Source: a virus
DNA length: 64,000 nucleotides
IMG/VR virus record: IMGVR_UViG_3300045902_000666
Coordinates: 37,744 to 101,743 of that record
Direction: 5' to 3' (one strand)
Positions within the stretch are counted from its first letter, which is position 1. Each line of letters begins with the position of its first letter. Shown here piece after piece: positions 13,439-16,734 of this stretch. The notes beneath the pieces are model-generated. The model worked only from the letters and a program-made list of their open reading frames with translations. It did not search any database and was not told where the DNA came from. The position numbers and the translations under genes are program-made.

Positions 13439-13447
13439 TTTTTTTTG

Positions 13448-13521
13448 TGATTCCGATAGGACTTGAACCTACAACCCTCTCCTTAGGACGGAGTAGCTCT
13501 ATCCAGTTGAGCTACGGAACC
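13448..13521 (-). tRNA. tRNA-Arg(CCT)
   Basis: Cloverleaf GGTTCCG..., anticodon loop GT-CCT-AA, T-loop GGTTCAAGTCC. Confidence 0.9.
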
Positions 13522-13522
13522 A

Positions 13523-13807
13523 TTAATTTTGAGAATCCTGAATATCTTTCCAGATTTGTTTATCTATAACATGTTTTGGTGTTCTCTCATATTTCAGATA
13601 TGAACACATTGGACAAGAACAAGGAGTGGAAGTCCATTTTAAAAATGTCCACATTTCCCCTTTTCTAATCTTGTCTCTAATCTCAGCGGAAGTCATTCTC
13701 TCCCATCCAAAATATTGATGCTGATTAGCAGGAACCCAAATTTTAAGACGCTTCTCAAATTTACATTTTTCTTTCCAGCGTCTTTCAGCTCTTTTTAAAT
13801 TTTTCAT
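13523..13807 (-). CDS. Small basic protein with PCSCPMC motif
   Basis: 94-aa K/R-rich ORF with Cys cluster. Confidence 0.65.
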   Translation of the reverse strand: MKNLKRAERRWKEKCKFEKRLKIWVPANQHQYFGWERMTSAEIRDKIRKGEMWTFLKWTSTPCSCPMCSYLKYERTPKHVIDKQIWKDIQDSQN

Positions 13808-13935: not shown

Positions 13936-15141
13936 TTAAACATTATCCACTTCAAAAAGACCAATTTTTTTCATACCAACATACAAATCAGACATTAACT
14001 TGAAAAACATTACTTTGTTTTCTTCATTGCCAGATATATGATGTGTTGTATACAAAGAATTAATCTCTTTACATAATTCAACCAAAGCTTGAAATAAAAC
14101 ACTTGGGTTTAGAGCTGCTTTAGCTTTAATATAAGCGTACTTAATCTCTGGCTTGATAAAATCATCAGCCGAATGGTTTAAATCAACTCCAGCACTTTTT
14201 AAACGAGCCATAGTATAACTTAAATATAATCCGGGAGAATTTTTATGATTCTTCATCAAACTCATATCAAAAGTCTTATCTGACTTTGGCGAGCCTCCCA
14301 AAATATATCCTGCAAAAATGTTATAGGCTAATTTTTCATCACCATTAAACTCTTCTTTTAATTCTTCCATAAAATCTGAAAGATAAACAACATTACGAAG
14401 ACGTGTAGACATTTTACCATTTGCAGATGGAATCATTTTATTTGACTTCAATTTAACAAGCCCCAATCCTACATGTGTTATATGAGGATAAACTTTATTT
14501 AAAAGTTTAAAATGATTCTCTTGTTCATATCCAGTCAAATAAAGAGTATCATCATTTAAAAGAGATGCCAATGCTAAATCCTGATAAAAATAAGAAGTAG
14601 AACCATCTTTTTTTATTACAACAATTTTTTCTTCTCCAGCCTCAACTATTTTTGTTCCTTCATATTCTCCTTCTCCATCTTTCAATTCACCTCCATATTT
14701 CATTTCGGAAGCAAAGAAAATTTTATCTACTTTATAGTCAAAATTTTTACAGTGTTCTTTGAATTTTTCCAAAGCTTCTTCTTTAGAAACATCACCAGTT
14801 AATGTATCTCCAAGCATAGAAACATATTCTTCAGCGACTCCAAGTTTCTGAAATGCTTTAGCTAAAATTAAATTTGAAAAGTGGCCAATATGTAAATGTT
14901 TATTAAGATTTGGGCTGAACCCATCCATGTATTTGAACTTTTTTTCCCCTATAAACATTTTACCAAAATCTGTTTTTTCAGTAGGGAAAAAATTGGTGTA
15001 TCCTTTTTCTTTTTGAATTATAAAATTGCAAGACTCTGCTAGGTTTAAAACTTCTTGTGTTGGTTCGCCAAATACACAAAACCCAAATCCTTTATTAAGA
15101 TTAGAAGGTATTACTTTAAATAAACTCGAATCTGTTGACAT
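13936..15141 (-). CDS. argS: Arginyl-tRNA synthetase, reduced (~401 aa)
   Basis: FSPNLNKHLHIGH (HIGH), KKDG.TSY..DLA, KMSTR, PGLYLSYTMARLKS; probable ATG at 15141. Confidence 0.85.
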   Translation of the reverse strand: MSTDSSLFKVIPSNLNKGFGFCVFGEPTQEVLNLAESCNFIIQKEKGYTNFFPTEKTDFGKMFIGEKKFKYMDGFSPNLNKHLHIGHFSNLILAKAFQKLGVAEEYVSMLGDTLTGDVSKEEALEKFKEHCKNFDYKVDKIFFASEMKYGGELKDGEGEYEGTKIVEAGEEKIVVIKKDGSTSYFYQDLALASLLNDDTLYLTGYEQENHFKLLNKVYPHITHVGLGLVKLKSNKMIPSANGKMSTRLRNVVYLSDFMEELKEEFNGDEKLAYNIFAGYILGGSPKSDKTFDMSLMKNHKNSPGLYLSYTMARLKSAGVDLNHSADDFIKPEIKYAYIKAKAALNPSVLFQALVELCKEINSLYTTHHISGNEENKVMFFKLMSDLYVGMKKIGLFEVDNV

Positions 15142-15156
15142 TGTTTTTGTTTTTTG

Positions 15157-15247
15157 TACAGGAGGAGGGATTCGAACCCCCATTGGCATTGCTGCTTCAA
15201 CTCCAGTTACGGATAAAAGTTTAGAAAACTTCCTCGGTTACACCTGC
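15157..15247 (-). ncRNA. Atypical tRNA-like RNA without D-arm, TCT (Arg) anticodon-like loop, large variable region
   Basis: Acceptor GCAGGTG/CTCCTGT, T-arm GGGGG-TTCGAAT-CCCTC, stem GAAGT-TTTCTAA-ACTTT. Confidence 0.6.
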
Positions 15248-15255
15248 ATATTTTG

Positions 15256-15328
15256 TGACCCGAACAGGAATCGAACCTGTGACCGACTGCTTAGAAGGCA
15301 GTTGCTCTATCCCCTGAGCTACCGAGCC
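15256..15328 (-). tRNA. tRNA-Arg(TCT)
   Basis: Canonical cloverleaf, ACTGC-CTTCTAA-GCAGT. Confidence 0.92.
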
Positions 15329-15783: not shown

Positions 15784-15794
15784 AAATTATTTCG

Positions 15795-15865
15795 CACAGG
15801 TGGAGAGATTCGAACTCCCGTCAACGGTTTTGGAGACCGCTATTCTACCACTGAACTACACCTGT
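15795..15865 (-). tRNA. tRNA-Trp(CCA)
   Basis: GCGGT-CTCCAAA-ACCGT, short variable loop, G73. Confidence 0.92.
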
Positions 15866-15873
15866 ATATTTTG

Positions 15874-15963
15874 CACGTTGGGAAGGATTCGAACCCTCGA
15901 AGAGTTAATTACACTCTTTACAGTTTTGGAGACTGCTGCCTTCAACCACTCGGCCACCAACGT
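15874..15963 (-). tRNA. Type II (long variable arm) tRNA with Trp anticodon CCA
   Basis: GCAGT-CTCCAAA-ACTGT; variable arm AAGAGT/ACTCTT; Ser/Leu-type D-arm. Confidence 0.8.
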
Positions 15964-16512: not shown

Positions 16513-16545
16513 AAAAAACCCCAGCTCTTTTGCAGAACCAGGGTT
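16513..16545 (-). terminator. Intrinsic terminator of the attenuator
   Basis: AACCCTGGTTCT-GCAAA-AGAGCTGGGGTT followed by a T-run. Confidence 0.8.
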
Positions 16546-16578
16546 ATACTGTTTTAACTTAAATATCTTTTAGAAAAG

Positions 16579-16668
16579 TTACGACAATATAGATGCTGGT
16601 CCGCTAGTTCTTTTTGAACTCGAACTTGAACTTCTCCAAGACCATCTATATGTTGTTGTTACTTTCAT
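16579..16668 (-). CDS. Attenuator leader peptide MKVTTTYRWSWRSSSSSSKRTSGPASILS
   Basis: 11 consecutive Arg/Trp/Ser codons; overlapping alternative hairpins; terminator 3' of it. Confidence 0.75.
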   Translation of the reverse strand: MKVTTTYRWSWRSSSSSSKRTSGPASILS

Positions 16669-16706
16669 GTTTTTATAAATATCAAAAATTTTCTTTTTTC
16701 TTGAGA

Positions 16707-16734
16707 TTGTACGCAAAGATAATAAAAAAGTTCT
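16707..16734 (-). promoter_or_regulatory. Promoter of leader/tRNA unit (AGAAC-N16-CGTACAA overlapping Bacteroidota -7 TATCTTTG)
   Basis: Motif variant about 40 nt upstream of the leader ATG. Confidence 0.6.

What the first reader, a model, noticed from the sequence alone, without database searches (positions are those of the whole stretch)
13936..15247. Reduced ArgRS directly preceded by a D-armless Arg(TCT)-like RNA: candidate orthogonal pair
Seen: ArgRS is about 401 aa, with only about 70 residues before the SPN..HIGH segment. The RNA 15157-15247 has acceptor and T arms and a TT-TCT-AA loop, but only TAACCGAG where the D-arm should be, plus a long bi-lobed variable region. Established: bacterial ArgRS is about 550-600 aa and its N-terminal Add1 domain reads A20 in the tRNA D-loop. 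Inference: enzyme and RNA co-evolved so that the phage charges a non-canonical tRNA that evades host tRNases, or supplies Arg to non-ribosomal uses.
Basis: partly seen in the sequence, partly recalled or inferred. Interest (0 to 1): 0.75.

Follow-up and report, generated by a model that had tools for sequence, protein, structure and literature searches.

The report
Rewired phage arginine tRNA beside mini-ArgRS
A giant phage encodes, right in front of an unusually small arginine-charging enzyme, an arginine tRNA whose D-arm is wired differently from the universal cloverleaf; the two are not an exclusive pair, since each occurs widely without the other, but the tRNA belongs to a large phage class that I found in no paper.

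Summary
Observation confirmed. A 401-aa ArgRS (13936-15141, minus strand) starts 15 nt after a 91-nt tRNA-like RNA (15157-15247, minus strand) that has a UCU anticodon and no D hairpin.

- All 26 other phage records with this RNA that I tested lack the enzyme. Nine of them are complete or at least 90% complete, including the cultured Maribacter phage Panino.
- Seven ArgRS-bearing genomes that are at least 96% complete lack the RNA.
- The RNA is adjacent to ArgRS in only 3 of about 36 ArgRS loci.

The RNA is real. It belongs to a phage class of 120 parsed distinct sequences with only Arg (87), Ile (32) and one CCA anticodon.
- Acceptor, anticodon and T stems covary.
- The "missing" D stem is formed by positions 10-13 pairing with two segments 3' of the anticodon arm. 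Those segments flank a D-loop-like GG-containing bulge.
- The base after GG is A in 87/87 Arg types and U in 28/32 Ile types. So the A20-like ArgRS mark appears to be retained, not lost.

The enzyme is a true compact ArgRS (Z 28 to solved ArgRS structures).
- It keeps a mini Add1 domain.
- It carries the yeast-type MSTR signature.
- It is strikingly poor in arginine.

Earlier runs of this scan noted the same tRNA class and the same enzyme family on other DNA. I found no published description.

The parts
13936..15141 (-). Compact arginyl-tRNA synthetase, 401 aa. HIGH at residues 84-87, KMSTR at 243-247, mini Add1 at about 1-57.
   Evidence: Pfam tRNA-synt_1d E 7e-6. AF2 model pLDDT 88.7. VIA Z 28 to ArgRS 6ao8, 4oby and 1bs2 over model residues 3-400. 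At least 544 homologues of 390-415 aa.
15142..15156 (-). 15-nt A-rich spacer between the tRNA discriminator and the ArgRS start codon.
   Evidence: Read from the sequence. The same 15-nt spacing is found in the 482-kb phage G003.
15157..15247 (-). Rewired (non-cloverleaf) tRNA-Arg(UCU), 91 nt. No CCA is encoded.
   Evidence: Rfam tRNA 30.4 bits with the D arm deleted. Model R1 79.8 bits. Family covariation.
15241..15247 (-). Acceptor stem 5' strand (RNA positions 1-7). It pairs with 15158-15164. Discriminator A is at 15157.
   Evidence: All 7 acceptor pairs covary in 32 relatives. In this copy, pair 6-85 (tRNA 6-67) is a U-U mismatch and pair 1-90 (tRNA 1-72) is G-U.
15235..15238 (-). D-stem 5' strand ACCG (RNA positions 10-13).
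   Evidence: Pairs 10-48, 11-47, 12-38 and 13-37. Across the class the equivalent pairs form in 52/55, 48/55, 119/120 and 116/120 sequences, with several Watson-Crick types.
15216..15232 (-). Anticodon arm (RNA positions 16-32). Anticodon UCU is at 15223-15225. U33 and A37 equivalents are present.
   Evidence: All 5 stem pairs covary. Anticodons in the class are Arg or Ile, apart from one CCA.
15200..15211 (-). Split D-stem 3' strand: CG (RNA 37-38) and GU (47-48), flanking an 8-nt D-loop-like bulge UAACUGGA (39-46) that carries the GG-A motif.
   Evidence: Covariation of 13 with c (GC 69, AU 21, CG 25) and of 10 with n. A after GG in 87/87 Arg-type members.
15182..15199 (-). Connector (UG...AAU) with an inserted 3-bp mini hairpin GCA-GCAA-UGC (RNA 53-62). 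This is the second 'lobe'.
   Evidence: The hairpin is present only in the window, L015, L020 and L030. Its stem covaries, GCA/UGC against GUC/GAC.
15165..15181 (-). T arm with the canonical UUCGAAU loop.
   Evidence: Rfam alignment. 3 of 5 T-stem pairs covary.
15255..15328 (-). Canonical cloverleaf tRNA-Arg(UCU), directly upstream of the rewired copy.
   Evidence: ARAGORN. Rfam 64.1 bits.
13447..13521 (-). Canonical tRNA-Arg(CCU), downstream of ArgRS and of a 94-aa ORF.
   Evidence: ARAGORN. Rfam 53.8 bits.
13523..13807 (-). 94-aa ORF of unknown function between ArgRS and tRNA-Arg(CCU).
   Evidence: ORF list. No Pfam match.

Best explanation
The locus is the arginine part of a huge phage's tRNA operon: canonical tRNA-Arg(UCU), a second AGA-reading tRNA-Arg with a rewired D-arm, a compact ArgRS, a small ORF, and tRNA-Arg(CCU).

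Shown:
- The odd RNA belongs to a widespread class of non-cloverleaf tRNAs found almost only in phages.
- In this class, positions 10-13 pair with two short segments that lie 3' of the anticodon arm and flank a GG-containing bulge.

Inferred:
- This long-range helix and bulge replace the D stem and D loop, so the L shape and the elbow contact are kept.
- The RNA is cut out by RNase P and RNase Z, receives CCA, is charged with arginine and decodes AGA, the phage's commonest Arg codon.
- It keeps the standard arginine identity marks (C35, U36 and an A after GG equivalent to A20). It occurs mostly in phages without any ArgRS gene. It is therefore probably a substrate of ordinary host ArgRS as well as of the phage enzyme.

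The compact ArgRS is a separate, widely distributed huge-phage enzyme. It sits here because ArgRS genes tend to lie among tRNA-Arg genes, not because it needs this RNA. Its extreme poverty in arginine suggests that it is built to be translated when charged tRNA-Arg is scarce.
For: RNA is a real tRNA-class gene:
- Rfam tRNA hit.
- 32 relatives with covarying acceptor, anticodon and T stems.
- 120 parsed class members with anticodons UCU 53, UCG 20, ACG 8, CCU 5, GCG 1, UAU 17, GAU 15 and CCA 1.
- Identity marks track the anticodon. A after GG: 87/87 in Arg types, against U in 28/32 Ile types. Discriminator: A in 32/32 Ile types, mixed in Arg types.

Split D stem:
- Pair 10-n forms in 52/55, 11-m in 48/55, 12-d in 119/120 and 13-c in 116/120 (GC 69, AU 21, CG 25). 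In every case 0/5000 shuffles reach the observed count.
- The rival local hairpin shows no double changes and fails when c is G.

Independence from ArgRS:
- 0 of 26 RNA-bearing records have ArgRS, including 8 records at least 90% complete plus complete phage Panino (positive control).
- 7 ArgRS-bearing genomes at least 96% complete have no such RNA by covariance model or by pattern.
- ArgRS loci are often flanked by ordinary tRNA-Arg genes.

Enzyme:
- Foldseek and VIA top hits are all ArgRS, Z 28.
- HIGH and KMSTR motifs are present.
- The N-terminal 57 residues align only to ArgRS structures, not to CysRS or MetRS.
- Median 3 Arg per about 395 aa, 8/119 with none, against 5.5% Arg in E. coli ArgS.

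Demand: AGA is 68% of Arg codons in the window.
Against: - No expression, processing or charging data exist; no RNA run holds this DNA.
- This copy has a G1-U72 wobble and a U-U mismatch in the acceptor stem, and a canonical tRNA-Arg(UCU) sits next to it, so this particular copy could be redundant.
- The 3D role of the long-range helix and of the GG-A bulge is inferred from sequence only.
- The RNA-15 nt-ATG arrangement is conserved in two phages whose ArgRS proteins are only 50% identical. This leaves room for a local functional link.
- Genome searches scored at most 150 first-look candidates per genome, so a divergent copy could have been missed.
Confidence: 0.7

Rival explanations
1. One reading: the compact ArgRS and the odd RNA are a co-evolved, orthogonal pair. 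The enzyme lost Add1, so it no longer needs the D-loop. The RNA lost the D-arm, so only the phage enzyme charges it.
For: - Direct adjacency with a 15-nt spacer in the window and in G003.
- Two copies just downstream of ArgRS in G019.
- The enzyme has a much reduced N-terminal domain and the MSTR signature of A20-independent ArgRS.
Against: - The RNA occurs in 26 tested records with no ArgRS, 9 of them complete or nearly so.
- 7 near-complete ArgRS-bearing genomes lack the RNA.
- The same architecture exists for tRNA-Ile (32 members), including in this same phage.
- The RNA keeps an Arg-specific A after GG.
- The enzyme keeps Y48 and N50 of the A20 pocket strand.
Confidence: 0.07
2. The RNA acts in cis on the ArgRS message. 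It would be a tRNA-Arg mimic in the 5' leader that the enzyme binds to repress its own translation (as ThrRS does at the thrS operator), or a processing signal that sets the 5' end of the mRNA.
For: - It ends 15 nt before the ArgRS start codon in two phages.
- No promoter-like site scores between the RNA and the gene.
Against: - Most family members sit in tRNA arrays far from any ArgRS, or in genomes without one.
- Full acceptor-stem covariation, a canonical T loop and five different Arg anticodons are what a decoding tRNA needs, not an operator.
- In G019 the copies lie downstream of the gene.
Confidence: 0.08
3. The RNA is a tRNA-shaped decoy that is not used in translation. It would soak up a host tRNA-directed nuclease, a modification enzyme or another tRNA-binding defence protein.
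For: - The class is confined almost entirely to phages. Only 5 hits, all on metagenome-assembled contigs, came from one genome per species for 185,579 species.
- The shape around the D stem differs from host tRNAs.
- A canonical copy with the same anticodon lies next to it.
Against: - Identity marks for the synthetase (A after GG in Arg types, A73 in Ile types) and the U33/R37 loop features are conserved. A decoy would need these only partly.
- In Panino the rewired gene is the only phage tRNA with a UCU anticodon.
Confidence: 0.12
4. The RNA is a decaying duplicate of the neighbouring tRNA-Arg(UCU) with no function.
For: - Borderline Rfam score.
- Acceptor mismatch in this copy.
- MFE fold no better than shuffles, z -0.52.
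Against: - The architecture is conserved in more than 100 distinct sequences, with compensatory changes in every helix.
- 77% identity to a gene in an unrelated 77-kb cultured phage.
Confidence: 0.02

Closest known systems
Canonical bacterial and phage tRNA-Arg(UCU) (Rfam RF00005), such as the window's own gene at 15255-15328
   Same: 7-bp acceptor stem, 5-bp anticodon stem, 7-nt loop with U33, UCU and A37, canonical T arm, U8, a GG-A motif, no encoded CCA, and location inside a tRNA array.
   Different: There is no D hairpin between position 9 and the anticodon arm. The partner strand of positions 10-13 lies after the anticodon arm and is split by the GG-containing bulge. A 7-nt UGNAAAYG-type connector (here with an extra mini hairpin) replaces the 4-5-nt variable loop.
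D-armless mitochondrial tRNA-Ser(AGY/AGN) of animals, including Ascaris tRNA-Ser(UCU) (PMC4013460, PMC7609411)
   Same: No D hairpin, and a short connector after position 9. Some have a UCU anticodon.
   Different: The mitochondrial RNAs have an unpaired D-replacement loop and weakened T arms, and they need adapted partner proteins. Here the connector is base-paired at long range (covariation), the T arm is fully canonical, and the hosts are bacteria.
allo-tRNAs and other 8/4 or 9/3 tRNAs of bacteria and phages (PMC5389517)
   Same: Natural non-standard tRNA architectures found in metagenomes and phages and missed by standard tools.
   Different: Those keep the order D arm, then anticodon arm. 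They change acceptor and T stem lengths, and their identity is Ser/His-like. Here the acceptor/T geometry is 7/5 and the D arm is rewired.
Yeast / mitochondrial-type ArgRS (PDB 1bs2, 1f7u) and E. coli ArgRS (4oby, 5b63)
   Same: Class I Rossmann core, HIGH motif, MSTR motif in place of KMSKS, helical anticodon-binding domain. VIA Z 26-28 over nearly the whole model.
   Different: About 175-205 residues shorter. Add1 is reduced to about 57 residues, no GDYQ motif is recognisable, the insertion domains are trimmed, and arginine content is about 0.9% against 5.5% in E. coli ArgS.
E. coli thrS operator (a tRNA-Thr anticodon-arm mimic in the synthetase's own leader; from general knowledge)
   Same: A cognate tRNA-like element immediately upstream of a synthetase start codon.
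   Different: The operator mimics only the anticodon arm and exists only at thrS. This RNA is a complete tRNA-class gene found mostly away from ArgRS.

Membership tests
Elongator tRNA (Rfam RF00005 cloverleaf) | Score at or above the family's gathering threshold | tested here: met
   30.4 bits against 29, with the D-arm positions deleted. ARAGORN does not call it.
Elongator tRNA (Rfam RF00005 cloverleaf) | 7-bp acceptor stem, 5-bp anticodon stem with a 7-nt loop (U33, purine 37), 5-bp T stem with a GTTCRANYC loop | tested here: met
   All three helices are present and covary in 32 relatives.
Elongator tRNA (Rfam RF00005 cloverleaf) | D hairpin (stem 10-13/22-25 closing the D loop) between position 9 and the anticodon arm | tested here: not met
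   Only 7 nt lie between A9 and the anticodon stem. Positions 10-13 pair instead with segments 3' of the anticodon arm.
Elongator tRNA (Rfam RF00005 cloverleaf) | Processing, CCA addition, aminoacylation and decoding | not testable with these tools
   No RNA run holds the DNA.
Bacterial tRNA-Arg identity set (A20, C35, U36/G36) | C35 and U36/G36 in the anticodon | tested here: met
   UCU here. UCU, UCG, ACG, CCU or GCG in all 87 Arg-type members.
Bacterial tRNA-Arg identity set (A20, C35, U36/G36) | A at position 20, directly after G18-G19 of the D loop | tested here: inconclusive
   An A follows GG in 87/87 Arg-type members, against U in 28/32 Ile-type members. That this A occupies the spatial place of A20 is inferred.
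D-armless mitochondrial-type tRNA | D arm replaced by an unpaired connector loop | tested here: not met
   Connector positions 10-13 show Watson-Crick covariation with distal partners.
D-armless mitochondrial-type tRNA | Relaxed or shortened T arm and loss of the elbow motifs | tested here: not met
   The T loop is the canonical UUCGAAU and a GG motif is kept.
Arginyl-tRNA synthetase (class Ia) | Catalytic Rossmann domain with HIGH and the ArgRS-type MSTR/KMSKS loop | tested here: met
   PF00750 E 7e-6, above its cut-off. HIGH and GKMSTR align to yeast ArgRS.
Arginyl-tRNA synthetase (class Ia) | Overall fold closest to solved ArgRS structures | tested here: met
   The top 14 Foldseek rows and the top 15 VIA rows are all ArgRS, Z 22-28.6. 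CysRS and MetRS follow at Z 22 or less and cover only residues 58-401.
Arginyl-tRNA synthetase (class Ia) | C-terminal DALR anticodon-binding domain | tested here: inconclusive
   Pfam DALR_1 scores 16.8 bits, below its 22.3 cut-off. Structural alignments run to residue 401, and hhalign aligns residues 164-396 to E. coli 280-576.
Arginyl-tRNA synthetase (class Ia) | N-terminal Add1 (D-loop binding) domain of about 100-140 residues with GDYQ and G-F-I-N pocket motifs | tested here: inconclusive
   No Pfam hit. About 57 residues align structurally to ArgRS N-termini. GYTNFF aligns to E. coli GFINIF. No GDYQ is recognisable.
Arginyl-tRNA synthetase (class Ia) | Arginylation activity | not testable with these tools
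   Needs an enzyme assay.
Orthogonal synthetase/tRNA pair | Enzyme and tRNA co-occur and are inherited together | tested here: not met
   0/26 RNA-bearing records have the enzyme. 7 near-complete enzyme-bearing genomes lack the RNA.
Orthogonal synthetase/tRNA pair | The tRNA lacks the identity marks used by the host enzyme | tested here: not met
   C35, U36 and the A after GG are retained.
Orthogonal synthetase/tRNA pair | No cross-charging with the host system | not testable with these tools
   Needs aminoacylation assays.

The most novel reading that the evidence does not exclude
The rewired tRNA-Arg is a fully working decoder that keeps every mark its synthetase needs. Its altered D-stem and anticodon-stem junction makes it invisible to host tRNA-directed defence nucleases. 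In this phage it forms an emergency arginine-decoding module together with an almost arginine-free ArgRS and a leader peptide rich in Arg, Trp and Ser codons. The module would be switched on and translatable precisely when charged tRNA-Arg runs out.
Probability: 0.25. Interest if true: 0.9.

Novelty: new variant of a known kind. Interest (0 to 1): 0.75.

Why it matters
[quoted passage not shown] A natural class of phage tRNAs that rebuilds the D stem with a different strand order would be the first non-cloverleaf tRNA design outside organelles that works with bacterial ribosomes, RNase P, the CCA enzyme, EF-Tu and synthetases.

- It would show how much of the cloverleaf is dispensable.
- It would give synthetic biology ready-made alternative tRNA scaffolds.
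- It means phage tRNA inventories are under-counted, because standard finders miss these genes. In phage Panino one is overlapped by a CDS annotated as a hypothetical protein.

The compact, arginine-poor ArgRS is a natural minimal ArgRS. It could test what Add1 and the insertion domains contribute.

For this finding specifically, the result corrects an attractive but wrong inference. The odd tRNA and the small enzyme are neighbours by function, not an exclusive pair.

Tried and rejected
- blastn of the 91-nt RNA against related huge-phage genomes gave only T-loop fragments. One 27-nt hit (L006) lay inside ordinary AT-rich sequence without any tRNA features.
- A first, strict pattern found nothing in viral contigs. 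Looser patterns did find members.
- I first read the first lobe as a local hairpin (UCCG/UGGA). It is compatible in 32 close relatives. I rejected it when divergent members showed no double changes and G-G clashes, while the long-range pairs covaried.
- The pseudogene reading is rejected by covariation.
- hhalign of the phage ArgRS profile against E. coli ArgS aligned only the C-terminal half, with probability 9.6%. The N-terminal correspondence therefore rests on MAFFT and on structural alignment ranges.
- Expression: no RNA holder is listed for this DNA.
- The 569-aa ORF downstream of the closest RNA relative (L020) is not a full-length ArgRS. It carries an ART-PolyVal domain.
- Seven literature searches and look-ups in two papers found no description of a D-arm-rewired phage tRNA or of this compact ArgRS family.
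- The RNAfold MFE of the single sequence is uninformative (z -0.52).
Full report
**What is in the window**

On the minus strand the order is as follows.
- A tRNA array: Ser, Trp, Trp-like, Ser, Ser (16054-15522).
- Canonical tRNA-Arg(UCU) (15328-15255).
- The odd RNA (15247-15157).
- A 15-nt A-rich spacer.
- An ORF whose homologues start at the ATG at 15141 (401 aa, ending at 13936).
- A 94-aa ORF.
- Canonical tRNA-Arg(CCU) (13521-13447).

ARAGORN does not call the odd RNA. Rfam's tRNA model matches it end to end at 30.4 bits (gathering score 29). The 15 D-arm positions are replaced by 5 nt, and there is a 31-nt insertion in the variable region.

**The enzyme**

Sequence evidence:
- Pfam gives a weak but above-threshold ArgRS catalytic-domain hit and a sub-threshold DALR hit.
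- The closest PDB sequences are yeast and human ArgRS. The SPN...HIGH and GKMSTR segments align to them.

The family:
- At least 544 proteins of about 390-415 aa, on contigs up to 678 kb.
- tblastn finds it in two uncultured 634-636-kb phage genomes and in 42 IMG/VR loci.

Structure:
- An AlphaFold model built on 21 family members is confident (pLDDT 88.7, pTM 0.88).
- Its best structural matches are all ArgRS, with Foldseek E down to 2e-16.
- VIA gives Z 28.6 to 6ao8, 28.2 to 4oby and 27.8 to 1bs2, with model residues 3-400 covering chain residues 5-576.
- CysRS and MetRS matches begin only at model residue 58-67. Residues 1-57 are therefore a miniature of the ArgRS-specific N-terminal (Add1) domain, not a total loss.

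A20 pocket:
- MAFFT aligns the family's GYTNFF strand (T49 and N50 nearly invariant) with E. coli GFINIF.
- In that E. coli strand, F82 stacks on A20 and N84 is central to A20 recognition, according to PMC8975779.
- On the other hand the family has KMSTR/KMSSR and no recognisable GDYQ. In Igloi's scheme this is the signature of the yeast/mitochondrial type, which accepts U, C or A at position 20.
- So the enzyme is a genuine compact ArgRS. Whether it still reads A20 cannot be decided here.

**The RNA is a family**

How the relatives were found:
- blastn against cultured phages found a 77%-identical, 80-nt relative in the tRNA array of Maribacter phage Panino. It is overlapped there by a CDS annotated as a hypothetical protein.
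- Pattern scans of IMG/VR found 7 and then 26 loci.
- One scan of one genome per species (185,579 species) found only five true members, all on metagenome-assembled contigs.

In a MAFFT alignment of 32 distinct members:
- All seven acceptor pairs, all five anticodon-stem pairs and three T-stem pairs change on both sides.
- 94% of cells pair, against 69% in shuffles (0/500) and 35-49% in slid controls.
- Anticodons are UCU or UCG.
- Column 10 and a column after the conserved GGAG covary perfectly (A-U 17, G-C 14, none unpaired).

**A wider class and the split D stem**

A covariance model (R1) and a class-wide pattern (UGNAAAYR plus T arm) recovered 122 distinct sequences; two were spurious, leaving 120. 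After parsing on sequence anchors only, the anticodons are:

| Identity | Anticodons (count) | Total |
|---|---|---|
| Arg | UCU 53, UCG 20, ACG 8, CCU 5, GCG 1 | 87 |
| Ile | UAU 17, GAU 15 | 32 |
| Other | CCA 1 | 1 |

Positions 10-13 pair with two segments after the anticodon arm. Two nucleotides (c, d) precede a UAR...GG bulge, and two (m, n) follow it.

| Pair | Paired | Pair types |
|---|---|---|
| 10-n | 52/55 | AU 20, GC 29, UA 2, CG 1 |
| 11-m | 48/55 | CG 39, UA 5, AU 3, UG 1 |
| 12-d | 119/120 | CG 101, UA 13, AU 3, UG 2 |
| 13-c | 116/120 | GC 69, AU 21, CG 25, GU 1 |

No shuffle out of 5000 reaches the observed count for any pair. The rival local hairpin, which I first favoured, shows only wobble-compatible single changes and fails when c is G.

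In the window RNA the pairs are A10-U48, C11-G47, C12-G38 and G13-C37, around the bulge UAACUGGA.
- Shown: this four-pair long-range helix.
- Inferred: that it stands in for the D stem, and that the GG of the bulge makes the elbow contact with the T loop.

The second 'lobe' in the window is a 3-bp mini hairpin inserted in the connector. It is shared with three relatives and covaries.

**Identity marks**

| Feature | Arg-type | Ile-type |
|---|---|---|
| Base after GG | A in 87/87 | U in 28/32 |
| Discriminator | mixed | A in 32/32 |

This is the pattern expected if standard ArgRS and IleRS identity rules (A20 for Arg, A73 for Ile) act on these RNAs.

**Test of the orthogonal-pair idea**

RNA without enzyme:
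- None of 26 RNA-bearing records has the compact ArgRS (profile search; positive control).
- These include 8 records at least 90% complete. Panino is complete and also lacks it.

Enzyme without RNA:
- Seven ArgRS-bearing genomes at least 96% complete (G002, G010, G011, G015, G017, G023, G024) have no model hit above ordinary-tRNA level and no class pattern.

Adjacency:
- Within 2.5 kb of about 36 ArgRS genes, a high-scoring rewired tRNA-Arg occurs only in three places.
  - The window.
  - The 482-kb phage G003, with the same 15-nt spacer and an ArgRS 50% identical.
  - G019, with two copies downstream of ArgRS, after Arg(CCU) and Arg(ACG).
- Two further genomes carry both genes kilobases apart.
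- ArgRS genes are often flanked by ordinary tRNA-Arg genes.
- The nearest RNA relative that also has the mini hairpin (L020) ends an Arg(ACG)-Arg(CCU) cluster. It is followed by unrelated genes.
- The same phage genome also has a rewired tRNA-Ile(GAU) outside the window.

The association is therefore one of arginine-related genes clustering together, not of mutual dependence.

**Context and function**

- AGA makes up 68% of arginine codons in the window's long ORFs (GC 31%), so a second AGA reader is plausible.
- The ArgRS gene itself has only three Arg codons, all CGU.
- Across 119 family members the median is 3 Arg per about 395 residues. Eight have none. That is 0.93% Arg against 10.3% Lys, and E. 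coli ArgS has 5.5% Arg.
- Upstream of the tRNA array lies a 29-codon ORF rich in Ser, Arg and Trp codons, followed by a strong terminator-like hairpin.
- Taken together this fits, but does not prove, an operon that is made and translatable when charged tRNA-Arg is short.

**Earlier notes of this scan and the literature**

Earlier runs of this scan described the same rewired Arg/Ile tRNA class and the compact ArgRS family on other DNA. One related claim was later marked as partly fallen, so I separate what is shown from what is inferred above. I reached the column 10 covariation before reading those notes. I tested the inner pairs, the GG-A specificity and the co-occurrence myself.

Seven literature searches and two paper look-ups found no description of this tRNA class or enzyme family. 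A 2024 abstract states that all known bacterial tRNAs are cloverleaves.

**Verdict**

- The orthogonal-pair interpretation fails by its own criterion.
- What is there is (a) a member of an apparently undescribed class of non-cloverleaf phage tRNAs and (b) a compact, arginine-poor phage ArgRS. They are neighbours within an arginine tRNA cluster.
- Expression, processing and charging remain untested; no RNA run holds this DNA.

Noticed in passing
window 13936-15141 (-) and 119 homologues (P0001-P0120): The compact ArgRS family is strongly depleted in its own amino acid. The median is 3 Arg per about 395 aa, 8 of 119 have none, and Arg is 0.93% against 10.3% Lys. The window's copy uses only CGU for its 3 Arg, although AGA is 68% of Arg codons nearby.
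   Followed up: partly
window 15873-15963 (-): A 91-nt tRNA with a long, 6-bp variable arm, a class II-type D loop (GCCGAGUGGUUGAAGGC), discriminator G and anticodon CCA sits next to a normal tRNA-Trp(CCA) at 15794-15865. A serine-like body with a tryptophan anticodon would be unusual.
   Followed up: no
window 20277-20348 (-): A tRNA with a CUA anticodon (amber suppressor; ARAGORN labels it Pyl) lies next to tRNA-Cys. This suggests the phage reads some UAG codons.
   Followed up: no
window 16513-16734 (-): A 29-codon ORF (MKVTTTYRWSWRSSSSSSKR...) rich in Ser, Arg and Trp codons is followed by a 12-bp terminator-like hairpin with a T run. It lies upstream of the Ser/Trp/Arg tRNA array and ArgRS. 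Another note of this scan reads it as an attenuator.
   Followed up: partly
G000:C1:2742-2823 (-) = L136:1501-1582 (-), outside the window: The same phage genome also carries a rewired tRNA-Ile(GAU) of the same architecture (42.6 bits with the Arg-built model).
   Followed up: partly
L014:3003-3082 (Maribacter phage Panino, PP540027 28066-28145): A rewired tRNA-Arg(UCU) lies unannotated in the tRNA array of a cultured phage. It is overlapped by the CDS PANI_CDS0068, annotated as a hypothetical protein. It is that phage's only tRNA with a UCU anticodon. Panino would be a tractable system for experiments.
   Followed up: partly
L118:1501-1578 (LR756504.1 309819-309896): A member of the rewired class has a CCA (Trp) anticodon and G instead of A or U after GG. 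It is the only non-Arg, non-Ile member seen.
   Followed up: no
L122:1501-1580 (G018:C1:81939-82018): A rewired tRNA-Arg(UCU) copy has the GG motif changed to GC and the T loop changed to UUGGAAU. It may be a decaying copy in a phage that also has the compact ArgRS about 100 kb away.
   Followed up: no
alignment A2, columns 1 and 93: 20 of 32 close relatives, including the window's copy, have a G1-U72 wobble at the top of the acceptor stem. This is unusual for elongator tRNAs.
   Followed up: no
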